Shown here: piece by piece, positions 1,122 through 56,937 of the stretch
Numbering within the stretch: position 1 is the first letter of the stretch
Layout of the letters: each line of letters starts with the position of its first letter
Assembly (NCBI GenBank): GCA_025336685.1
Contig: GCA_025336685.1_4717.1
Reading direction: 5' to 3' (one strand)
DNA from: Escherichia coli
Lineage (GTDB): Bacteria; Pseudomonadota; Gammaproteobacteria; Enterobacterales; Enterobacteriaceae
Length of the DNA stretch: 64,000 nucleotides
Notes under the pieces: model-generated
Told to the model about the DNA's origin: nothing
The model's input: only the letters and a program-made list of their open reading frames with translations
Database searches by the model: none
Translations under genes and position numbers: made by a program

Positions 1122-1153
1122 CCCTCCTCCAACCCATCAGGGAAGGAGGAGGG
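1122..1153 (-). terminator. intrinsic terminator hairpin (9-bp CCCTCCTCC/GGAGGAGGG stem, 14-nt loop)
   Basis: Perfect stem 1122-1130/1145-1153 directly downstream of the 1171..1545 gene; minus-strand RNA continues UUAUGCU; sits between convergent genes. Confidence 0.6.
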
Positions 1154-7273: not shown

Positions 7274-10200
7274 TTACATAAACTCCTCGATGATGCAAAT
7301 CCCGTCAGCGCCACGCCCGCCACGCATAACGGTTCCAGTGTAACCGTTATCGTAAGCGCCGCCGCCCGAACCTCGTGCGAGGCCGTTTGACCCACCGCCA
7401 ACAGCTGCGCGACCACCGCCACCCCAATATGACGCACCCCCACCACCACATACAGGAAATGCGCCAGCCTGACCGTCATCACCATCACCACCTGAAATGC
7501 GTATATCCCCGGTACTAGGTACACCACCACCCCCACCGCCAGTGTTTGTGACAGTTGTTTTTCCTGCGCCTTGCCCACCGGGAGCAGTCAGCAGGGATGC
7601 AAATTTACTATCCCCGCCCCTGTTTCCAACTGTTGCCCCGGAACCACCAGTGCCACCAGAACCAATTACAACAGAATAACTAGTAGCCGCTACCGTTATA
7701 ACCGAAATTACTGTTGCCCCGGCCCCACCGCCAGCACCAAAAAACGTTTCGCTGTTGGAAAAAGCCTGGCAACCACCACCGCCGCCTCCACCACCGGTTA
7801 ATATTACTCTAATCCGTTTTGTTCCTTGTGTTGGGGTGTACGTCCCTGACGATGTGAAAACACGCATGTTCAGTAAACGTCCGACATATCCACTAGAATC
7901 GGCTAAACCAAGATCTTTAGCTGCTAACGTGATATTAGCTGTGCCATCGAAAGGTTTACCGTTAATCGTGCGTGCCGTCTGCAGCTTCGTGGCCGTTGCT
8001 GCGTTTCCTGACGTATTCTGGTTTCCCGCGGCGTTAACACCTGGTAGATTGATGTTCGCACTACCGTCGAAAGACACCCCACCAATGGTGCGGGCTGTCT
8101 TCAGTTTTGTCGCCGTGGCGGCATTACCGGTCGTGTCTTGGTTACCGGTGGTGTTTACCCCAGGTAGGTTGATATTGGCTGTTCCGTTAAATGAAACACC
8201 ACCAATCGTCCTTGCTGTTTGCAACTTCGTTGCGGATGCCGCATTCCCCGTGGTGTTTTGGTTACCTGTTGCATTCACGCCTGGGATGCTATCCTTAGAT
8301 GTGTAGATCTGTGCCCATTCCGACCAGTTCGAATCGGCCGCATCACGACGTGAACGTAGGTAAGCTGGAGCGTGTGCGCCTGAGGTACCTGACCACCCAA
8401 TGAGGATTTCACCTTCACCGACCGATGAAGCCCCTTTAAGATGAATGATGTTACCATAAGCGGTGGGATATCCGTTATTGTACGCTTCATACATCTGGAT
8501 GCCCGCATTGCTGCCCTGAGCCGTGTTAGCTAAGGCCGTAACACGACCTTTGGAAGCGAGAGCGTTAATACTGAAGCTAATATCCTTAGTACCGTCAAAG
8601 GCGACCCCATTAATCTTCCGTGCTGTTTGGAGTTTCGTAGCAGTAGCCGCATTACCAGAGGTACTCTGATTACCTGCTTTGTTCACGCCCGGTAAATCAA
8701 TGTTGGCTGTTCCATCAAAGGACACACCCCCTATGGTTCTCGCTGTCTGGAGTTTTGTTGCTGAACCAGCGTTTCCAGAAGTGCTTTGATTACCTGCCGC
8801 GTTGACACCCGGTAGGTCAATGCTAGCAGAACCATCAAAAGAAACTCCACCGATCGTGATCGGTGTTTTCAATTTCGTGGCTGTCGCAGCATTACCCGTC
8901 GTATTCTGATTGCCAGCAGCATTAACACCAGGTAATGCGATATCGGTCGTACCATCGAACGCAACACCACCGACTTTACGGGCGGTCTGTAGCTTGGTCG
9001 CTGTAGCCGCGTTGCCGCTGGTATTTTGCGTGCCTGCTTTATTTACGCCAGGCAAATCAATGTTCGCAGTACCATCAAAAGAAACACCCCCGATGGTTCT
9101 CGCGGTCTCAAGTTTGGTTGCGCTTCCTGCGTTTCCGCTGGTGCTTTGATTTCCCGCTGCATCAACACCTGGTAGATTGATGCTGGCCGAACCATCGAAA
9201 CTCACACCACCGATAGTAACAGCGGTTTTCAACTTCGTCGCCGTTGCTGCGTTACCGGTTGTATTTTGATTGCCTGTCGCATTAACGCCCGGTAATGCAA
9301 TATCCGCTGTTCCGTCAAAGGCAACGCCACCGATTCTACGTGCAGTTTGTAGCTTGGTTGCACTAGCAGCGTTACCGCTGGTATTCTGGGTGCCAGCTTT
9401 GTTAACACCGGGGAGATCGATATTAGCAGAACCATCGAAGCTGACGCCACCTATCGTTCTTGCAGTATCGAGTTTAGCTGCTGTGGCTGCATTATTACCC
9501 ACTTTCAGCCAATCATCCCATGGACCATCCTGGCCGTTCCATGATGCCGTTAAACTACGTACGTAAATATTGCCGGTACGTACAGTGTAACGTTGCGTTC
9601 CACCGAATTGTCCGGCAGGGAGCACTTCAAGGTAACCTGCAGCATTTGCTTCAGGGAAATTGTGGGCGACGTCCGCGTTCGTTGATACTGGTTTAGACCA
9701 AATACCCACAGACACTTCAACCGGACCGTAAGTATTCAGATTTGCGTCGGTGGGGAGCTGTCCTCGAAAACGTTGGAATTGTGTCGCCGATAACCCCAAC
9801 GTTGTTTGCATGCTTTCAATGCTGGATTGCTGAAGTAACGTCCGTGCTGTCGATGTAATCACGGTAAGCGCAACTTTATTAACACCGGTGAAATACGGGA
9901 GTTTGTCTGCTGATGTCGCTAAACCTGAAAAGGCGGTCAGTAATGCGTTAAGGGGCTGCTTCCCAGCTAACGCATTTGTTACCGTCGTTGCGAAATTAGG
10001 ATCGCTTCCTATAGCTCGAGCCAGCTTATTAAGCGTATTTAGCGTCGCTGGTGACGAGTCGATCAGCGCCGTGATCGCACGCATCACAAATTCCGTGTTG
10101 GCTATCTGTCGACTGCTATTGTTAACTGCTGCGGTGGGCGCTGCTGGCGTACCAGTGAATACAGGGCTATTAAGATCCGCCTTGAGGGCGATGAGACGTT

Positions 10201-22925: not shown

Positions 22926-22998
22926 CTTGACATCCTCTTATATTGGATTGCTTGCTAATAATTCAAGGTGAAGCCAATGACTCCATTGCTTCACCTAG

Positions 22999-23015
22999 GT
23001 AATATAGCCGTGAAA
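22999..23015. promoter_or_regulatory. conserved 17-mer GTAATATAGCCGTGAAA, copy 1
   Basis: Exact copy of the 17-mer at 53145-53161; both lie within about 100 nt upstream of a leftward gene; ACTCACGT octamer nearby in both. Confidence 0.35.
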
Positions 23016-44544: not shown

Positions 44545-44844
44545 TTACTGAAACAGGACATTAAATTCGACAAGATACCCATCGGATCTATCACCACGAT
44601 AACGGTTGCAGAAAACGCCGAATTTCATCAAGAACTCACATAACTCTTCGGCTTTGTATAACGGAATACGATTTTCGTCGAACAGAGGGCACTTATGGCT
44701 AACCCGCTCCGACGAATCAACGCAACACAAATAAAGAAGGAACCGAACGATAGCTCGGTTCTTAGTGAAGCTCTCGAATTCACCTGCGGTTCTGAACTCA
44801 TCGAGGAGCTTTGTCGTTTTCTTCAATCGTTCACGATCAAGCAT
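44545..44844 (-). CDS. hypothetical protein (99 aa)
   Basis: ORF; C-terminal EFNVLFQ loosely resembles the C-termini of the two preceding paralogs. Confidence 0.4.
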   Translation of the reverse strand: MLDRERLKKTTKLLDEFRTAGEFESFTKNRAIVRFLLYLCCVDSSERVSHKCPLFDENRIPLYKAEELCEFLMKFGVFCNRYRGDRSDGYLVEFNVLFQ

Positions 44845-44866
44845 GTTAACCTCAATACGAACATAA

Positions 44867-44898
44867 CCCTCCTCCTTCCCTGATGGGTTGGAGGAGGG
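44867..44898 (-). terminator. intrinsic terminator hairpin, loop-inverted copy of the 1122-1153 element
   Basis: Same 9-bp CCCTCCTCC/GGAGGAGGG stem and flanks (cataa ... aatatgct) as 1122-1153, but the 14-nt loop is the reverse complement. Confidence 0.6.
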
Positions 44899-44907
44899 AA
44901 TATGCTA

Positions 44908-45222
44908 TTATTCTGCTTTAGGCGATGAACCGTTCTTTTTGAAGTCGGATTCGTATTTCACGTTAGAATCGAGAACCTCACGAACGGTTTTATCCGTACA
45001 ACCACGGGCGATGTATGCATTAAGATCGTCGCGTAATTTACGCATTGTTGTTTTATCCGCATCAGAAACATCTGACTTGGTAAGACGGAACGCAATCGCA
45101 TCACGAATTTTATTCAACATTGCTGGGTTATTACGCTGTTCTGCAAATACCGCTTTGATGAACTTATCGCTATCTTTCGAAGCGATGGCTGCATCAAGAA
45201 TCTCAATATGCTTTTCAGACAT
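44908..45222 (-). CDS. hypothetical protein (104 aa)
   Basis: ORF, no motif. Confidence 0.4.
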   Translation of the reverse strand: MSEKHIEILDAAIASKDSDKFIKAVFAEQRNNPAMLNKIRDAIAFRLTKSDVSDADKTTMRKLRDDLNAYIARGCTDKTVREVLDSNVKYESDFKKNGSSPKAE

Positions 45223-51900: not shown

Positions 51901-52379
51901 CGATTTAATTGCTCCAGAAATGCACGACCCGATTTACTTGCTTTTAAATGTTGTTCTGCGGAAGTAAGCAGAAGATCGGTTGGTGTGAATGCAGCGCTAC
52001 CTTTCCACGCCGTTTTCAGTTTACCCTTTTCGATACTGAACTGAATCAGTTGTTGGGTACCGAAGTTAAGCGTGTTCGTTGCGGCGCTAAATACACCACC
52101 CATCATGCTGTAACCAAAGACTTTCACATTTTCCGTGTAGAAGTCATTGTCGATCAATTTGTTCTGGAGCTCGAGTTGGTCGGACGGCAGTAATCCCCCA
52201 TCAAAGACACTTAAAATACCAGCCAGGCGATACATACTCACCTTCCCTGCAACGCCCACCACGTAATTGCCATACACGGTTTCTTCCAGTTTAGCAACAA
52301 CGGTGCGATCGTCGGAGGTTTTCATCGAAACCTCAATACCATCACCAACTTCTGTCAACGTTAAATCAACGATACTCAT
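51897..52379 (-). CDS. hypothetical protein (160 aa)
   Basis: ORF between the phosphoesterase and HD genes. Confidence 0.4.
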   Translation of the reverse strand: MSIVDLTLTEVGDGIEVSMKTSDDRTVVAKLEETVYGNYVVGVAGKVSMYRLAGILSVFDGGLLPSDQLELQNKLIDNDFYTENVKVFGYSMMGGVFSAATNTLNFGTQQLIQFSIEKGKLKTAWKGSAAFTPTDLLLTSAEQHLKASKSGRAFLEQLNR

Positions 52380-52401
52380 TCATTATTCTCCGCTTTCATG
52401 T

Positions 52402-53088
52402 TTAACACATGATTTCACCATGTTTCTTTTCAACATACGTATAAACGTCATCCAAATAAGCAATGAGTTTATCCCGATTTGCACAAAGCGATTTAATCGC
52501 CGCAATCTCTTTCATATAAAGCTGCTGACCTAACGCCGGATAAGTAATCCAAGCATAGCCGTCAGGCGCAAATTTAGAAATAAGATAATCGGCGGTTTCC
52601 TGTAATGCGAACTCTTTACTCATCTGACCGTAACGATGTTCGATTGCACGGATACCAAAACGTTCACTATCCAGACGACCCATATCCGCCAAACGAAGCA
52701 CCTGAGAAGCAACCGAGCTACGTGGACCGGAGTATGAGGCACGGTGTTCAGCAATAAGTACACGTATCTCCTCGATGTCTTCTGGTGTGAAAATATGTTG
52801 CTCGTTACGAAGCAGGATAACCGCTGCACGAATACCCCCGATGAGGTGGTGGTATGTTCTGTTTTCATGGCATGCAATATCGTGCATAAAAGCGGCAGTT
52901 AATAGACGACGACGTTCCGTGGGTCTGATGATGCCAACCACATCGGCAAGCTCATTTGCCAGTTCAACAACAGCAAGCACATGTTCTTCTTGATGGGCAA
53001 GATCGTTCTTCTGAATATTTTCAATTACTTCAGCGCGAGTTTCCTGAGATAAGAAATTTAAACAATCCAACGAATATAAAGATTTCAT
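52402..53088 (-). CDS. HD-domain phosphohydrolase
   Basis: HQEEHVLAV...AAFMHDIACH gives the H...HD metal-binding signature. Confidence 0.6.
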   Translation of the reverse strand: MKSLYSLDCLNFLSQETRAEVIENIQKNDLAHQEEHVLAVVELANELADVVGIIRPTERRRLLTAAFMHDIACHENRTYHHLIGGIRAAVILLRNEQHIFTPEDIEEIRVLIAEHRASYSGPRSSVASQVLRLADMGRLDSERFGIRAIEHRYGQMSKEFALQETADYLISKFAPDGYAWITYPALGQQLYMKEIAAIKSLCANRDKLIAYLDDVYTYVEKKHGEIMC

Positions 53089-53144
53089 CGCACGTACCTC
53101 TTTGAATCGGTAGATAGATTAATAGATATTGATTACTCACGTAA

Positions 53145-53161
53145 GTAATATAGCCGTGAAA
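53145..53161. promoter_or_regulatory. conserved 17-mer GTAATATAGCCGTGAAA, copy 2, in the divergent intergenic region
   Basis: Identical to 22999-23015; overlapped by a 6-bp hairpin ATTACT-CACGTA-AGTAAT; ACTCACGT octamer at 53135-53142. Confidence 0.35.
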
Positions 53162-53240
53162 GGATTTGTGTTGGTCCGTTTCGATGCCCATCGTATTTTA
53201 TGGATTGTCGAATGACGTCATTTTAAGGGACATCCCCGAC

Positions 53241-53276
53241 CTCCTCCCCACACCTTTCCAGGGGAGGAGTTTTATC
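53241..53276 (+). terminator. plus-strand terminator-like hairpin in the leader of the SNF2 gene (attenuator or small-RNA terminator)
   Basis: CTCCTCCCC/GGGGAGGAG 9-bp stem, 11-nt loop, followed by TTTTATC; sits 30 nt upstream of the SNF2 start. Confidence 0.45.
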
Positions 53277-53304
53277 ATACTTTTCTATTAATTCGAGCGC
53301 GATT

Positions 53305-55386
53305 ATGTTGGATAGAATCAATCGTTTAATGAACCGAATGACGGTTAAAAATCAGAGTAACAATACCGTGCATATCGGGGGTATCGATGCGTGGCGTCTT
53401 TCAGATGACATTCAGCGAATATGGGGTACCTCCCGATTTATGAAGCACATGTTTCGTAATTTTTCTTCTAGTGGGCTCAGTCTCCACAACTTTTACCTCC
53501 CCGATTTCGTTTATATTCTCGAAACGATCATCGAGGCAAAGAATACCCGTAGCAACAAACGCATGCTGAAACACCTTATCGAGATACTACTACAGGAAAC
53601 ATGGTTGCAAAATACCACCATCGAGCAGCCCGCAATCCTCGATAAAGCACGCATGAACAAAATGCTAACGCTCTCTCTGTTCGATTATCAAGATGAGTTC
53701 ATCGACATCTATAACCGTAACGTACCTAAATACCGACTGAAAGGATACGTGTGTGCGATGGGTGCAGGTGCCGGTAAAACGATCACAGCGCTGGCATTAA
53801 GCGCCGCAATGAACGTCGATGTATTTGTGGTCTGCTGTCCTAAGAACACCATGCGTTCAGCATGGCAATCCGATGTAAACAAAGCCATCGTTGATCCTGC
53901 AACAGAAACCGCGTTCTGGTCAGACACAATGCCACCATCACAGCTGCAGAAAAGCGATAAGTACTATTTTCTACATTACGAATCGATGGGCTTATTAAAC
54001 GATGTGATGATCAAGCATAAACGCACAGCGAAGCGCGTTCTTATTGTTGTTGACGAAAGCCATAACTTCAACGACAAGAACAGCCAACGTTCCCAGCGAC
54101 TGGTTGATCTTGTACAGACAATGCGTCAGACCATGAATGCGGATGTGCACGTCTTGTTTATGTCAGGTACCCCTGTTAAACAGATGGGTTCTGAGATGAT
54201 CCCATGTTTAGGTTGTATCGATCCGATGTTCCAAGGACAGGTGGTCGATAGCTTCAAAGCAATTTACGGTTTAACCAGCAGCCGTGCTAACGATATCCTC
54301 AGACATCGTCTTGGGTTCATGATGCATGTCGTACCTAAAGAGGCTTACCGTAAAACCCGTCCGGAAGTTCAGGATGTTTACGTGAAGCTTCCTAATGGTA
54401 GCGATTATACCATCTCGAGCATTCGTGACGACATGGCGATATTTGTACGCGATCGGGCGAAGTATTACAAGGATAACTGGGGACATTACCGAAAGATTTT
54501 TGATGATGCCTTGGACTACTATCGTAAGACTATTCGTACCGACGGAGAACGTAAAGAGCTATCTCGATACGAATCGATTGTTGCGCGTTTCCAGAAAGGT
54601 TACGATCCCGTCAGAGACAAAGACGATGCGATGTTCTGCAGCGCGTTTGAAAAACGTTCCATCATGCCAGTTCTTCCTTCTGATTTAAGGGTTGCTTTCA
54701 AAGACGCCAAGAGCGTCATCAAGTACGTTGGGTTGAAAATTCAGGGTGAAGCATTGGCCCGTGTTCTGGGCGCAGCGCGCATTCGGTGTCATGTCGACAT
54801 GGTGGAATACATCGACTTCGAAGGGTACATCAATAACGCCGAAGCCAAAGTGTTGATCTTCACGTCGTACGTTCAGGTGGTTGAACGCGTCGATAACATG
54901 CTTCGTGATGCGGGCTTCTTACCGGAACCCATTTACGGGAAGACCAACAAAAACATCAACCAAATACTTGCCCGTCTACGCGACGATCCTGACAGCGGTC
55001 CCGCTATCGCAACCTTTGATAGCTTAGCTGAAGGGGTTCCGATGCTGATGTGTAATGTGGGTCTCTTCTTGAACAACCCGTGGCGTTCATCCGATGAAAT
55101 CCAAGCCATCAGCCGTCTCGACCGTGTAGGGCAAACGCAACCTGTTCGGATTTATCGTTTCATGTTAGATACGGGAAGCGAGGGTAACGTTTCTACCCGT
55201 AGTCACGAAATCATGGAGTTAAGTCGACAGCTTGTTGAAGAAATCACGGGCGTCAAATATGTAGTGAACAAGCAAGATGATGTTAACTTGCAAGAAACGT
55301 TGGCGATGGAAGGATACGATCAATACGTTACCGTAAACGCCACGGAATACGATATTAAACCACGACCTGCGTTCTTGGAATGGTAA
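53305..55386 (+). CDS. SNF2-family (SF2) helicase/ATPase
   Basis: DYQDEF motif, Walker A GAGAGKT, Walker B VVDESHNF, SGTP motif III, C-terminal helicase domain. Confidence 0.8.
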   Translation: MLDRINRLMNRMTVKNQSNNTVHIGGIDAWRLSDDIQRIWGTSRFMKHMFRNFSSSGLSLHNFYLPDFVYILETIIEAKNTRSNKRMLKHLIEILLQETWLQNTTIEQPAILDKARMNKMLTLSLFDYQDEFIDIYNRNVPKYRLKGYVCAMGAGAGKTITALALSAAMNVDVFVVCCPKNTMRSAWQSDVNKAIVDPATETAFWSDTMPPSQLQKSDKYYFLHYESMGLLNDVMIKHKRTAKRVLIVVDESHNFNDKNSQRSQRLVDLVQTMRQTMNADVHVLFMSGTPVKQMGSEMIPCLGCIDPMFQGQVVDSFKAIYGLTSSRANDILRHRLGFMMHVVPKEAYRKTRPEVQDVYVKLPNGSDYTISSIRDDMAIFVRDRAKYYKDNWGHYRKIFDDALDYYRKTIRTDGERKELSRYESIVARFQKGYDPVRDKDDAMFCSAFEKRSIMPVLPSDLRVAFKDAKSVIKYVGLKIQGEALARVLGAARIRCHVDMVEYIDFEGYINNAEAKVLIFTSYVQVVERVDNMLRDAGFLPEPIYGKTNKNINQILARLRDDPDSGPAIATFDSLAEGVPMLMCNVGLFLNNPWRSSDEIQAISRLDRVGQTQPVRIYRFMLDTGSEGNVSTRSHEIMELSRQLVEEITGVKYVVNKQDDVNLQETLAMEGYDQYVTVNATEYDIKPRPAFLEW

Positions 55387-55391
55387 TTAAG

Positions 55392-55419
55392 AAGCTCTGT
55401 CTGATGTCAGACAGAGCTT
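55392..55419 (+). terminator. intrinsic terminator hairpin (13-bp stem)
   Basis: AAGCTCTGTCTGA/TCAGACAGAGCTT perfect stem after the SNF2 stop, followed by TATGCCGTGTTTGTT. Confidence 0.65.
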
Positions 55420-55485
55420 TATGCCGTGTTTGTTACAAAATCGTATGGCGTATATGCGTTGTACTTATTAAATAGGACAGAATAC

Positions 55486-56937
55486 ATGAAACTCAAACAA
55501 AGCTGGAAAGACGAACTTCTTGCGTTAGTAAATAGCAAAAACAGTTTACAGCTGACATTAGCCGACGTAAAATTTGAACTAACTGAACCGGTAAGCGAAG
55601 TGCCCGGAACGGTTACTGTTACGATCAAACCGAACGATGATAGCCGTTACTTTAACGAGCAGTCTCTGACCTACATCCGTCGAGACATCGCTAAAAACTT
55701 CACCGGGATCCCGTTACGGGTTATCGTTAAAAATGATACTGCCGTAAAGGATATCATCAACACGATCGCTGAACGTTACGGATTGGTATTTGACACAACC
55801 GTCGACTTCCTCGAATCCGAGCTGAATAAACAAATTACGTTCGCAGACACCGGTATTAAAGACATCACGGTTCCGGTTGCAAACACGTCTTATGTTTGGG
55901 CTGGTAATCTTCAGTTCAACATTGCTAACGATACGTTAAGCTTGATTACGATCATCAAGCAAACCGATCTTACGAATCTGGTTTATCTGGATGGTGTTGA
56001 AGCTGATACAACGGGATCGTTACTATTAGCAACGACCTCGGTTATCGACGAAAACGGAAATACCGAAACAACTGAAGGTGTCCTTGACGCAGCGCACTTC
56101 CAGAATGTCCTGAACGTCATGGTTCGTTATGGTGATATTACCAACGAACAAATGCAACAAGCAATGCAGACAATTAACCAAAGCGAAGACGTTCGTAGAG
56201 TAGAGGTGAGATCATACGGTGACGCCGAATTACTGGTAACCACCAAGAAAGATTGGGCTATCGGCAGCCTTAAGGGTGCTATGGTTGTTGGACGCGCTTC
56301 ACCTAAACCGATCCAATACGTTCTTAAAACAAAAGGCGGCAGCATTATATTATCATTAGATGGTTGGACAAATGTTTCCATCGATTGGGGTGATGGGAAT
56401 AAGACGACGGAGGACTCAGTCGATAATGAATATCGGCACACCTATGCGGACACTACAGAACGTACGATCGTCGCTACGGGTACCCCTACCAACGTTGAAG
56501 ATACAGAGGTACAGCAAAGCTTCACCGGTGGTAACATCACTGAAATCGTTGACTGGAACAACGGATTACCTAAGGCCCCATCATTACCTGCGGCGAACAG
56601 TTTAACTAAGGTTCCTAATTATATCCCGGCATACTGGACATCGTTAGAAGGTATGTTTACACGATGCAGCGTTATTAACGACGTGAACATCACCAAATGG
56701 AACACCCGCAACATTACTTCAATGAAGGACCTCTTCTACGGTTGCGCTGCGTTCAACCAACCGATCGGTTCGTGGGATGTTTCGTCTGTTAAGAATATCG
56801 ACAATATGTTGTCTGGATGCTTCGCGTTCAATCAGGATCTGAGTGGTTGGACATTCCCGGCAGGCACTTCACACATCAACTACGACGGCATGACCGCCGT
56901 GTGGAGTACTGAACACAAACCACACTTCGCTGAGTAA
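55486..56937 (+). CDS. receptor-binding-like protein: anchor domain fused to DUF285/BspA-like repeats, encoded outside the tail module
   Basis: N-terminal anchor paralog (YIRRDIAKNFTGIPLRVI); C-terminal WNTRNITSMKDLFYGC / WDVSSVKNIDNMLSGC repeats; start MKLKQSWKDEL with AGGA SD. Confidence 0.6.
   Translation: MKLKQSWKDELLALVNSKNSLQLTLADVKFELTEPVSEVPGTVTVTIKPNDDSRYFNEQSLTYIRRDIAKNFTGIPLRVIVKNDTAVKDIINTIAERYGLVFDTTVDFLESELNKQITFADTGIKDITVPVANTSYVWAGNLQFNIANDTLSLITIIKQTDLTNLVYLDGVEADTTGSLLLATTSVIDENGNTETTEGVLDAAHFQNVLNVMVRYGDITNEQMQQAMQTINQSEDVRRVEVRSYGDAELLVTTKKDWAIGSLKGAMVVGRASPKPIQYVLKTKGGSIILSLDGWTNVSIDWGDGNKTTEDSVDNEYRHTYADTTERTIVATGTPTNVEDTEVQQSFTGGNITEIVDWNNGLPKAPSLPAANSLTKVPNYIPAYWTSLEGMFTRCSVINDVNITKWNTRNITSMKDLFYGCAAFNQPIGSWDVSSVKNIDNMLSGCFAFNQDLSGWTFPAGTSHINYDGMTAVWSTEHKPHFAE

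What the first reader, a model, noticed from the sequence alone, without database searches (positions are those of the whole stretch)
53145..53304. Terminator-like hairpin inside the SNF2 leader: candidate attenuator or small RNA
In the 216-nt divergent intergenic region, the conserved 17-mer is followed about 80 nt later on the plus strand by a strong hairpin (9-bp stem, 53241-53269) plus TTTTATC, only 30 nt before the SNF2 ATG. No plus-strand gene lies upstream. So either a roughly 100-nt plus-strand RNA ends here, or SNF2 expression is controlled by attenuation or antitermination.
Basis: partly seen in the sequence, partly recalled or inferred. Interest (0 to 1): 0.45.

Follow-up and report, generated by a model that had tools for sequence, protein, structure and literature searches.

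The report
Phage terminator hairpin in helicase leader
A conserved jumbo-phage-type terminator hairpin lies just upstream of a virion helicase gene with no gene before it, probably cutting a short leader RNA as already shown in the related phage phiKZ, so it is a new example of a known arrangement.

Summary
The window is a Goslar-like nucleus-forming jumbo phage of E. coli. The hairpin is real: 9-bp stem 53241-53249/53261-53269, then TTTTATC, 28 nt before the SNF2 ATG. Its stem is invariant in nine related genomes. It belongs to the phage's own terminator family (CCTCC arm, GGAGG arm, TTTAT tail), the same type mapped experimentally in phiKZ. It is one of only two or three such hairpins in Goslar with no upstream gene on their strand.

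It is the reverse complement of an early-promoter motif (TTTCACGGCTATATTAC...) that always points leftward, here into the HD gene.

A different plus-strand start is plausible: an invariant TATG (53199-53202), the phiKZ late-promoter consensus. It opens the most conserved 60 nt of the locus and would give a 72-75 nt RNA ending at the hairpin. The validated phiKZ PHIKZ221 leader has the same layout (about 71 nt).

Best reading: a leader terminator that attenuates SNF2 expression and releases a short RNA. No transcript ends are available, so this is inferred. Ribosome-coupled attenuation is unlikely.

Verdict: new member of a known kind, moderate interest.

The parts
53241..53269 (+). Terminator-type hairpin. 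The 5' arm is CTCCTCCCC, the loop is 11 nt (ACACCTTTCCA) and the 3' arm is GGGGAGGAG.
   Evidence: Sequence. Folds at -18.1 kcal/mol, z = -3.8, 0 of 200 shuffles as stable. The 9 stem pairs are invariant in 9 genomes. The closing pair is A-T in 7 genomes, G-C in L018 and an A.A mismatch in the window. Annotated as a terminator in Goslar. It matches the phage's hairpin family.
53270..53276 (+). T-rich tail TTTTATC, the U tract of the terminator. It contains the TTAT that is typical of phiKZ-type terminators.
   Evidence: Variants in relatives are TTTTTATC, TTTTTAC and TGTTTTC, all still T-rich. The phiKZ terminator motif has TTAT after the stem (PMC10914365).
53137..53161 (-). Early-type (virion RNA polymerase-like) promoter motif TTTCACGGCTATATTACTTACGTGA, pointing at the HD gene.
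   Evidence: There are 2 exact matches in the window, both on the minus strand, with 0 expected. Goslar has 12 intergenic matches, all on the minus strand and all upstream of minus-strand genes, including chimallin. It is the second longest invariant run in the 2-kb alignment.
53190..53249 (+). Ultra-conserved block running from just upstream of the TATG to the end of the 5' arm of the hairpin.
   Evidence: My count is 2 variable columns out of 61 across 7 genomes, against 38% variable third codon positions in SNF2. It contains the longest invariant run of the 2-kb alignment, 53190-53224.
53199..53202 (+). TATG, a candidate late-type (non-virion RNA polymerase) start signal, with G 53202 as +1.
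   Evidence: It is the only plus-strand TATG in the intergenic region apart from the one overlapping the start codon, and it is invariant in 9 genomes. The phiKZ late promoter is TATG with G as +1 (PMC7598289, PMC12809450). Use as a start site here is inferred, not shown.
53202..53276 (+). Predicted leader RNA of 72-75 nt, running from the TATG start to the U tract.
   Evidence: Inference from the anatomy. Folds at -25.4 kcal/mol with the terminator hairpin as the only stable element. The phiKZ PHIKZ221 leader has the same layout and size.
53211..53222 (.). Perfect 12-bp palindrome AATGACGTCATT inside the conserved block.
   Evidence: There are only two copies in the 237-kb Goslar genome, with 0.018 expected. 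Both lie in divergent intergenic regions that carry early promoters, and the other copy is 35 nt upstream of the chimallin ATG.
53305..55386 (+). SNF2-family helicase gene. It is the homologue of the virion-associated helicases RAY gp131 and phiKZ gp203.
   Evidence: ORF. Pfam ResIII, SNF2-related and Helicase_C. tblastn hits and their annotations. RAY gp131 localisation (bioRxiv 10.1101/2023.02.24.529968).
52402..53088 (-). HD-domain hydrolase gene. It is the first gene of the leftward block served by the early-type promoter.
   Evidence: ORF, Pfam HD, Goslar_00159 annotation.
55391..55420 (+). Terminator hairpin directly after the SNF2 stop codon, followed by TATGCCGT.
   Evidence: Across 8 genomes it shows two compensatory stem changes and, in Goslar, a flipped loop.
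53276..53279 (-). The only minus-strand TATG in the intergenic region (plus-strand CATA). If used as a start, the hairpin would sit at +8 to +36 of a long HD leader.
   Evidence: CATAC is invariant in 9 genomes, but 5 invariant columns are not significant here (and my arithmetic). Listed as a sense TATG 181 nt upstream of Goslar gene 159.

Best explanation
The hairpin is a phage-type intrinsic terminator in the 5' leader of the virion SNF2 helicase gene.

Proposed mechanism. The phage's non-virion RNA polymerase starts rightward inside the intergenic region, most likely at the invariant TATG 53199-53202 with G 53202 as +1. It transcribes the conserved 40-nt stretch and then meets the 9-10 bp GC-rich hairpin and its U tract. 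Most polymerases stop near 53273-53276 and release a 72-75 nt leader RNA. The fraction that reads through makes SNF2 mRNA with a 102-nt leader. The element would therefore hold helicase expression down and, as a by-product or a function, yield a small RNA.

What is shown: the hairpin exists, it is conserved, it belongs to the terminator family, it has no upstream plus-strand gene, and the 17-mer points the other way.

What is inferred: the start site, actual termination at this site, the read-through fraction, and any regulation of that fraction.

The confidence of 0.45 is for this mechanism. That the hairpin is a conserved, family-type terminator element I rate at about 0.85.
For: 1. The hairpin is real and stable. 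Its 18 stem bases are invariant in 9 genomes, while 38% of SNF2 third codon positions vary. The closing pair changes A-T to G-C in L018.

2. It has the family signature of this phage's terminators: a CCTCC-rich 5' arm, a GGAGG-rich 3' arm and a TTTAT tail. Of 40 strong intergenic hairpins in Goslar, 31 lie downstream of a gene on the same strand. The same design is the experimentally mapped phiKZ terminator motif BCCYCCCC-HWWD-GGGRRGG-BYTTATKYYGT (PMC10914365).

3. phiKZ offers a direct precedent. Across the six phages of that study, 42 termination sites lie in 5'UTRs. phiKZ terminator T102 aborts more than 90% of PHIKZ221 transcripts and gives an RNA of about 71 nt, confirmed by northern blot. 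On the phiKZ sequence I read TATG, then a two-hairpin RNA of about 71 nt, then a T-rich tail, then the ATG. That is the same layout as here.

4. The plus-strand TATG is invariant and opens the most conserved stretch of the 2-kb alignment, 53190-53249, where 2 of 61 columns vary.

5. SNF2 is a virion-associated protein in RAY and phiKZ, so it is expected to be a late gene.

6. The other two orphan leader hairpins in Goslar (between genes 12 and 13, and between 210 and 211) also have a sense TATG within about 45 nt upstream of the hairpin.
Against: No transcript 5' or 3' ends exist for any Goslar-like phage in the searched literature.

TATG is only 4 bp. I found no extended consensus around Goslar TATG sites that could rank candidates, and the requirement for TATG is known for phiKZ, not for Goslar.

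Covariation support is weak: one pair, reached by 70 of 500 shuffles.

The tail lacks the G/T and YYGT positions of the phiKZ motif, and the loop is 9-11 nt rather than 4.

The conserved block could instead be a protein-binding region or an upstream element of the leftward early promoter.

The hairpin is not found upstream of the SNF2 homologue in Proteus phage 10, where the intergenic region is only 33 nt. In phiKZ a hairpin is present but about 250 nt upstream and unrelated in sequence. The arrangement is therefore specific to the Goslar group.
Confidence: 0.45

Rival explanations
1. Insulator. The hairpin stops stray or antisense plus-strand transcription that starts inside the long leftward gene block or at chance TATG sites. 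This keeps such transcripts from running into the late SNF2 gene. No dedicated promoter lies upstream of the hairpin, and the SNF2 promoter is elsewhere or of an unknown type.
For: About 48 kb of minus-strand genes lie upstream. The TATG promoter consensus is only 4 bp and frequent, with 1293 copies in Goslar. phiKZ produces antisense RNAs, and 9% of the terminators mapped across the six phages of that study are antisense to genes. The SNF2 unit is bracketed by plus-strand hairpins at 53241, 55391 and 56956.
Against: It does not explain why the 50 nt immediately upstream of the hairpin are the most conserved part of the locus. Only 28 nt with no TATG would be left for the SNF2 promoter. About twenty other plus-strand islands in Goslar lack such a hairpin.
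Confidence: 0.2
2. Minus-strand element. A second, late-type promoter for the HD block starts at the minus-strand TATG (53279-53276, with G 53276 as +1). The same inverted repeat then forms a 5'-proximal stem-loop at +8 to +36 that stabilises a long HD leader. On this view the plus-strand T tract is incidental.
For: The stem folds equally well on the minus strand, at -19.3 kcal/mol. CATAC, which reads GTATG on the minus strand, is invariant in 9 genomes while the T tract beside it varies in length and sequence. Tandem early and middle promoters are reported for phiKZ chimallin (PMC8244752). The same GTATGATAAAAC sequence lies 29 nt upstream of Goslar gene 165.
Against: Five invariant columns in this region are expected by chance about 1 time in 8 (my arithmetic). 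The 12-mer match has a BLAST E-value of 1.5. The 5'UTR would be about 188 nt, far longer than the 25-50 nt typical here. All nine genomes keep a T-rich run directly after the stem on the plus strand, and the hairpin has the orientation-specific design of the family, with the pyrimidine arm first and a TTTAT tail.
Confidence: 0.1
3. Coupled terminator-promoter module. The hairpin with its T tract marks the SNF2 start site itself, at the end of the tail (TATC, C 53276). This parallels the many Goslar hairpins followed by TATG 17-50 nt before the next gene.
For: Twenty of 31 bona fide terminators carry TATG in the tail. The spacing from the tail to the next ATG is typically 20-100 nt, and here it is 28 nt.
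Against: None of the nine genomes has TATG at this position; they have TATC, TTAC or TTTC. All four bases are strictly required in phiKZ (PMC7598289). Six of 7 terminators between convergent genes also carry TATG although no gene follows, so the TATG tail belongs to the terminator rather than to a downstream gene.
Confidence: 0.05
4. Stray copy. The hairpin is a member of a dispersed, recombining hairpin family that landed in this intergenic region and has no role of its own.
For: Family members are near-identical at distant sites and on opposite strands, for example the same 30-mer at window 1123 (-) and 44868 (+). Loops flip between related phages.
Against: The hairpin is present at the same site in 9 of 9 genomes with an invariant stem, a compensatory closing pair and a flanking ultra-conserved block.
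Confidence: 0.07
5. Classical ribosome-coupled attenuator. Translation of the 8-codon ORF at 53200-53226 (MDCRMTSF) decides between terminator and antiterminator folds.
For: A short ORF ends 15 nt before the hairpin and is invariant.
Against: The ORF has no Shine-Dalgarno sequence, and no alternative antiterminator pairing appears in the folds. Nucleus-forming phages separate transcription from translation (PMC12908238 abstract).
Confidence: 0.02

Closest known systems
phiKZ 5'UTR premature terminators and 5'UTR-derived short RNAs: T102 upstream of PHIKZ221 (about 71 nt) and T131 upstream of PHIKZ302 (141 nt). Source: Putzeys et al. 2024, PMC10914365.
   Same: Both are in nucleus-forming jumbo phages with their own RNA polymerases. 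In both, a strong hairpin with a T-rich tail sits between a candidate TATG start and the start codon. The predicted short RNA is almost the same size (72-75 nt here, about 71 nt there) and has a two-hairpin shape.
   Different: There is no sequence similarity, the downstream gene differs, and the host is different. In phiKZ the RNA ends were mapped and confirmed by northern blot; here nothing is measured. PHIKZ221 follows a gene on the same strand, whereas here the leader lies in a divergent intergenic region.
Conserved phiKZ intrinsic terminator motif 5'-BCCYCCCC-HWWD-GGGRRGG-BYTTATKYYGT-3' (61 sites; PMC10914365).
   Same: A pyrimidine-rich CCYCC 5' arm, a GGRGG 3' arm, and TTAT right after the stem. 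Goslar carries the same design genome-wide, as hairpin plus TTTATGCYGT.
   Different: The loop is 9-11 nt instead of 4, the stem is 9-10 bp instead of 7, and the tail is TTTTATCATAC, so the K and YYGT positions do not match. It also lies upstream of a gene rather than downstream.
Bacterial Rho-independent terminators used as 5' leader attenuators (trp, pyr, T-box and riboswitch types).
   Same: A GC-rich hairpin plus U tract placed between a promoter and a start codon.
   Different: There is no antiterminator alternative and no sensing domain, and Rfam gives no match. No coupled translation is possible in the phage nucleus, and the polymerase is a divergent phage enzyme.
Hairpin-associated small inversions of chloroplast genomes, for the flipped loop.
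   Same: The loop is replaced by its reverse complement while the inverted-repeat arms stay unchanged. The chloroplast phenomenon is discussed in PMC12928735.
   Different: It is seen here in phage terminators. Only two cases were examined, the leader hairpin in the window and the SNF2 3' terminator in Goslar.

Membership tests
phiKZ-type (chimallivirus) intrinsic terminator | GC-rich stem with a CCYCC-type pyrimidine 5' arm and a GGRGG-type purine 3' arm | tested here: met
   The arms are CTCCTCCCC and GGGGAGGAG. The family is listed in Goslar and in the window. The motif is from PMC10914365.
phiKZ-type (chimallivirus) intrinsic terminator | Short loop of about 4 nt (HWWD) | tested here: not met
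   The loop is 11 nt in the window and 9 nt in the relatives. The validated phiKZ T102 hairpin, as I read it, also has a 12-nt loop region.
phiKZ-type (chimallivirus) intrinsic terminator | TTAT directly after the stem, followed by K and YYGT | tested here: inconclusive
   TTAT is present in the window and 6 relatives, but absent in L018 (TTTTTAC) and L020 (TGTTTTC). The K and YYGT positions are not matched, the sequence being CATAC. Eleven of 31 bona fide Goslar terminators also lack TATG.
phiKZ-type (chimallivirus) intrinsic terminator | Lies downstream of a gene on the same strand | tested here: not met
   The upstream neighbour is on the opposite strand. This is one of only 2 strong orphan hairpins among 40 in Goslar.
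phiKZ-type (chimallivirus) intrinsic terminator | RNA 3' ends map to the tail, meaning the phage polymerase terminates there | not testable with these tools
   No transcriptome of a Goslar-like phage was found.
5'UTR premature terminator / 5'UTR-derived short RNA (phiKZ T102 type) | A transcription start lies upstream of the terminator and within the same leader | not testable with these tools
   The candidate is only the invariant TATG 53199-53202. No discriminating context around Goslar TATG sites was found.
5'UTR premature terminator / 5'UTR-derived short RNA (phiKZ T102 type) | Layout of TATG start, then a structured RNA under 250 nt, then hairpin with T-rich tail, then a short spacer, then the ATG | tested here: met
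   In the window: TATG at 53199, hairpin at 53241-53269, tail to 53276, ATG at 53305. In phiKZ locus L026: TATG at 560, hairpin at 595-628, ATG at 653.
5'UTR premature terminator / 5'UTR-derived short RNA (phiKZ T102 type) | A short transcript and a read-through transcript share one 5' end | not testable with these tools
   This needs long-read or northern data.
Ribosome-mediated leader-peptide attenuator | A translated leader ORF plus mutually exclusive terminator and antiterminator folds | tested here: not met
   The 8-codon ORF has no Shine-Dalgarno sequence, and no competing helix appears in the folds. Transcription and translation are separated in these phages.
Described RNA families (riboswitches, known sRNAs) | Match to an Rfam covariance model | tested here: not met
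   There were no matches at E <= 1 in 52000-54500 on either strand.
Jumbo-phage early (virion RNA polymerase) promoter, for the 17-mer | A conserved AT-rich motif of about 10 nt recurring upstream of early operons, oriented with the gene | tested here: met
   Goslar has 12 intergenic copies, all on the minus strand and all 36-163 nt upstream of minus-strand genes, including chimallin. The window has 2 exact copies with 0 expected. The general rule is from PMC7598289.
Jumbo-phage early (virion RNA polymerase) promoter, for the 17-mer | A transcription start mapped about 10 nt downstream of the motif centre, early in infection | not testable with these tools
   No 5'-end data are available.

The most novel reading that the evidence does not exclude
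The 72-75 nt leader transcript could be a trans-acting late small RNA. Its invariant 12-nt palindrome AAUGACGUCAUU would pair with the identical, self-complementary sequence in the 5'UTR of the chimallin (nuclear shell) early mRNA, or would be bound by the same factor. Late transcription from the SNF2 leader would thereby be linked to shut-off or control of early nuclear-shell expression.

More broadly, the terminator tail (TTTATG) overlaps the 4-bp late-promoter consensus TATG. This may point to coupling between termination and initiation by the non-virion RNA polymerase. What gives that promoter its specificity is an open question.
Probability: 0.07. Interest if true: 0.75.

Novelty: new member of a known kind. 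Interest (0 to 1): 0.35.

Why it matters
Nucleus-forming jumbo phages transcribe their genes with their own polymerases, and in phiKZ the late promoter consensus is only four bases. How they set expression levels of individual genes is poorly understood. In the literature I searched, genome-wide transcript-end maps for this family were found only for phiKZ.

This locus gives a clean, conserved and testable case in an E. coli phage. It contains a family-type terminator with no upstream gene, an invariant candidate start and leader, and a divergent early promoter, all within 216 nt. If termination here is confirmed, leader attenuation and 5'UTR-derived short RNAs would extend beyond phiKZ. It would also offer a tractable system for studying termination by these unusual polymerases.

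The correction of the 17-mer's orientation also gives a usable early-promoter motif for Goslar-like phages.

Tried and rejected
- **Rfam:** an E-value search of 52000-54500 gave no match.
- **Host promoters:** the sigma-70 scan found nothing in the intergenic region.
- **Whole-region fold:** the 232-nt intergenic region folds no better than shuffles, z = -0.4. Only the hairpin itself stands out.
- **Covariation:** one compensatory pair, not significant, reached by 70 of 500 shuffles.
- **Extended late-promoter consensus:** 57 gene-proximal TATG sites in Goslar were compared with 1293 genome-wide. No position was informative, so TATG candidates cannot be ranked.
- **Similarity of the conserved block to other sites:** short-word BLAST against Goslar and the window gave only chance-level 10-13-mers, apart from the palindrome.
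- **Conservation across the phage family:** the Proteus phage 10 homologue has a 33-nt divergent intergenic region with no room for a hairpin. phiKZ gp203 has a 350-nt divergent region with unrelated hairpins. I did not examine further genera.
- **phiKZ supplementary tables:** the start and termination coordinates are not held. I therefore read the PHIKZ221 leader from the sequence myself.
- **Goslar transcriptome:** literature searches found none.
- **Small plus-strand coding ORF:** the 41-codon TTG ORF 53166-53291 is broken by 1-nt indels among relatives.
- **Bidirectional terminator:** rejected, because no T-rich run follows the stem on the minus strand.
- **Uninformative script:** one ortholog-matching script produced mostly noise from an over-permissive pattern. 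Only the specific hairpin comparisons from it were used, and these were re-checked by alignment.

Full report
**Identity of the window.** Region 52300-55500 is 93.8% identical to Escherichia phage vB_EcoM_Goslar, a nucleus-forming jumbo phage. The finding lies between Goslar_00159 (HD hydrolase, minus strand) and Goslar_00160 (helicase, plus strand). The GenBank record already marks the orthologous hairpin as a putative terminator. Pfam confirms both genes: HD for one, and ResIII, SNF2-related and Helicase_C for the other. By tblastn the helicase is the homologue of Erwinia phage RAY gp131, annotated as a virion-associated SWI/SNF helicase, and of phiKZ gp203, annotated as a structural protein. 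RAY gp131 localises with capsids (bioRxiv 10.1101/2023.02.24.529968). The gene is therefore most likely a late gene.

- The stem is 53241-53249 paired with 53261-53269 (9 bp), the loop is 11 nt, the tail is TTTTATC at 53270-53276, and the ATG is at 53305.
- The hairpin folds at -18.1 kcal/mol, z = -3.8, and none of 200 shuffles folds as well.
- Upstream, the plus strand carries no gene for about 48 kb.

**The 17-mer points the other way.**
- Read on the minus strand, GTAATATAGCCGTGAAA is TTTCACGGCTATATTAC. All ten TATATTAC copies in Goslar are on the minus strand.
- Eight of these lie in intergenic regions and align into a 25-nt motif, TTTCACGGCTATATTACYTANGTGA.
- A mismatch search finds 12 intergenic copies, all on the minus strand. 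Each lies 36-163 nt upstream of the start of a minus-strand gene, including the nuclear-shell (chimallin) gene.
- The window has two exact copies, both on the minus strand, with none expected by chance. The second copy (22991-23015) lies between two minus-strand genes.
- This fits the general rule that jumbo phages with their own polymerases carry a conserved AT-rich early-promoter motif upstream of early operons (PMC7598289). In phiKZ the chimallin gene has such an early promoter (PMC8244752).
- The 17-mer therefore belongs to a leftward promoter for the HD block.

**The hairpin belongs to the phage's terminator family.**
- My scan of the assembled Goslar genome found 40 strong intergenic hairpins with T-rich tails. 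Thirty-one lie downstream of a gene on the same strand.
- Many have a CCTCC-rich 5' arm, a GGAGG-rich 3' arm and the tail TTTATGCYG. Twenty of the 31 carry TATG in the tail, including 6 of 7 between convergent genes.
- This is the same design as the 61 experimentally mapped phiKZ terminators, BCCYCCCC-HWWD-GGGRRGG-BYTTATKYYGT (PMC10914365).
- The hairpin here has the arms and the TTAT, but a longer loop and a tail that reads TATC rather than TATG.
- It is one of only two strong hairpins in Goslar with no upstream gene on their strand. The other lies between genes 210 and 211, and a weaker third between genes 12 and 13.
- In the window, plus-strand hairpins bracket the helicase unit at 53241, 55391 and 56956.

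**Comparative evidence.** Eight further Goslar-like genomes were recovered from viral and metagenome collections.
- The hairpin is present in all of them at the same place, and the nine stem pairs never vary.
- A tenth, closing pair is A-T in seven genomes, G-C in L018 (compensatory), and A.A in the window. Formally this is weak covariation: one pair, reached by 70 of 500 shuffles.
- The T tract varies (TTTTATC, TTTTTATC, TTTTTAC, TGTTTTC) but stays T-rich.
- In a 2-kb alignment of seven genomes the two longest invariant runs both lie in this intergenic region: 53190-53224 (35 nt) and the early promoter 53142-53168 (27 nt).
- From 53190 to 53249 I count only 2 variable columns out of 61 from the alignment, while 38% of helicase third codon positions vary.
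- The stretch just upstream of the hairpin is therefore under strong constraint.

**What the conserved block contains.**
- It begins with the only plus-strand TATG of the intergenic region apart from the one overlapping the start codon (53199-53202). TATG, with G as +1, is the late-promoter consensus of the phiKZ non-virion polymerase. That consensus is bound in the non-template strand, and further promoter determinants lie downstream (PMC7598289, PMC12809450).
- In Goslar, sense TATG sites cluster 25-50 nt upstream of many genes. I found no wider consensus, so sites cannot be ranked.
- A start at G 53202 would give a 72-75 nt RNA ending in the hairpin's U tract, and a 102-nt helicase leader.
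- The block also holds a perfect 12-bp palindrome, AATGACGTCATT (53211-53222). This occurs only twice in Goslar, with 0.018 expected. The other copy is 35 nt upstream of the chimallin start codon.

**Precedent.**
- Across the six Pseudomonas phages of that study, including phiKZ, 42 mapped termination sites lie inside 5'UTRs.
- phiKZ terminator T102, in the PHIKZ221 leader, stops more than 90% of transcripts and gives an RNA of about 71 nt. T131 gives a 141-nt RNA. Both were confirmed by northern blot (PMC10914365).
- Reading the phiKZ sequence, I find TATG just after the preceding gene, a two-hairpin RNA of about 71 nt ending in a hairpin with a T-rich tail, and the start codon about 20 nt later.
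- The window has the same layout and nearly the same size, with no sequence similarity.

**Most likely mechanism.** A late-type start in the intergenic region is followed by frequent termination at the hairpin. This limits helicase expression and releases a short leader RNA. I rate this at about 0.45.
- The identity of the hairpin as a conserved, family-type terminator element is much more secure, at about 0.85. That it acts on a transcript born in the intergenic region is inferred.
- Ribosome-coupled attenuation is unlikely. There is no Shine-Dalgarno sequence for the 8-codon ORF and no antiterminator fold, and these phages separate transcription from translation (PMC12908238).

**Rivals.**
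- An insulator against stray plus-strand transcription (0.2).
- A 5' stabilising stem-loop of a long HD leader started at the minus-strand TATG 53279-53276 (0.1).
- A stray family copy (0.07).
- A coupled terminator-promoter (0.05). This is disfavoured because none of the nine genomes has TATG in the tail, and convergent terminators carry TATG too.

**Scope.** The arrangement is specific to the Goslar group. The Proteus phage 10 homologue has only a 33-nt divergent intergenic region. phiKZ gp203 is also divergently arranged, but its 350-nt upstream region carries unrelated hairpins.

**Verdict.** The element is a new member of a known kind, with moderate interest. The decisive test is RNA-end mapping in infected cells.

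Noticed in passing
window 53250-53260: The hairpin loop is reverse-complemented in the window (ACACCTTTCCA) relative to all eight related genomes (AGGAAAGGTGT). The stem arms are unchanged, and one base differs in addition. This is a small inversion bounded by the inverted repeat, of the kind known from chloroplast hairpins. It shows that the loop sequence and orientation are not essential.
   Followed up: yes
window 55391-55420: The terminator after the SNF2 stop codon shows two independent compensatory stem changes among 8 genomes: C-G to T-A in the window and L015, and T-A to C-G in L020. In Goslar its 4-nt loop is flipped (ACAT versus ATGT). Loop flipping therefore recurs in these terminators.
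   Followed up: yes
window 53211-53222; Goslar 172929-172940: The perfect 12-bp palindrome AATGACGTCATT occurs only twice in the Goslar genome, with 0.018 expected. Both copies lie in divergent intergenic regions with early promoters: here, and 35 nt upstream of the chimallin start codon. It could be an operator or an RNA pairing site.
   Followed up: partly
Goslar genome-wide; window 20015, 26875, 43270, 44867, 56956, 63496: Terminator hairpins are followed by TTTATGCYG. The tail TATG equals the phiKZ late-promoter consensus. It is present in 20 of 31 bona fide terminators, including 6 of 7 between convergent genes where no gene follows.
   Followed up: partly
window 22991-23015 and 53137-53161 (minus strand): The early-type promoter motif is TTTCACGGCTATATTACYTANGTGA. 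All Goslar copies are on the minus strand and none precedes a plus-strand gene. The part around the expected start, TTACYTANGTGA, is nearly palindromic.
   Followed up: partly
window 1123-1152 (-) and 44868-44897 (+): The identical 30-nt hairpin sequence CCTCCTCCTTCCCTGATGGGTTGGAGGAGG is present at two distant sites on opposite strands. At the second site the asymmetric parts are oriented opposite to Goslar. The terminator hairpins behave like a dispersed, recombining repeat family.
   Followed up: partly
window 53104-53111: An 8-nt insertion (GGTAGATA) lies in the HD leader relative to Goslar. Among the relatives it is shared only with L018 (GGTAAATA). The surrounding 30 nt are the most variable part of the intergenic region.
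   Followed up: no
Goslar 134413-134640 (orthologous to window about 44700-44930): The lone plus-strand ORF Goslar_00145, inside a long minus-strand block, is overlapped by a strong minus-strand terminator hairpin (134586-134615). It may not be a real gene.
   Followed up: no
L023 851-1200 (phiKZ 212768-213117): The phiKZ SNF2 homologue gp203 is also divergent from its neighbour gp204. The 350-nt intergenic region is rich in hairpins, for example AAAGGAGCCC-CTGGT-GGGCTCCTTT followed by AATG. Whether it encodes a short RNA could be checked in the published phiKZ maps.
   Followed up: partly
Goslar 9956-10069 and 187574-187711: Two other plus-strand single-gene islands have a plus-strand hairpin with a T-rich tail in their divergent leader, each with a sense TATG within about 45 nt upstream of the hairpin. 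They are gene 13 (baseplate assembly protein) and gene 211. This is the same layout as the SNF2 leader.
   Followed up: partly
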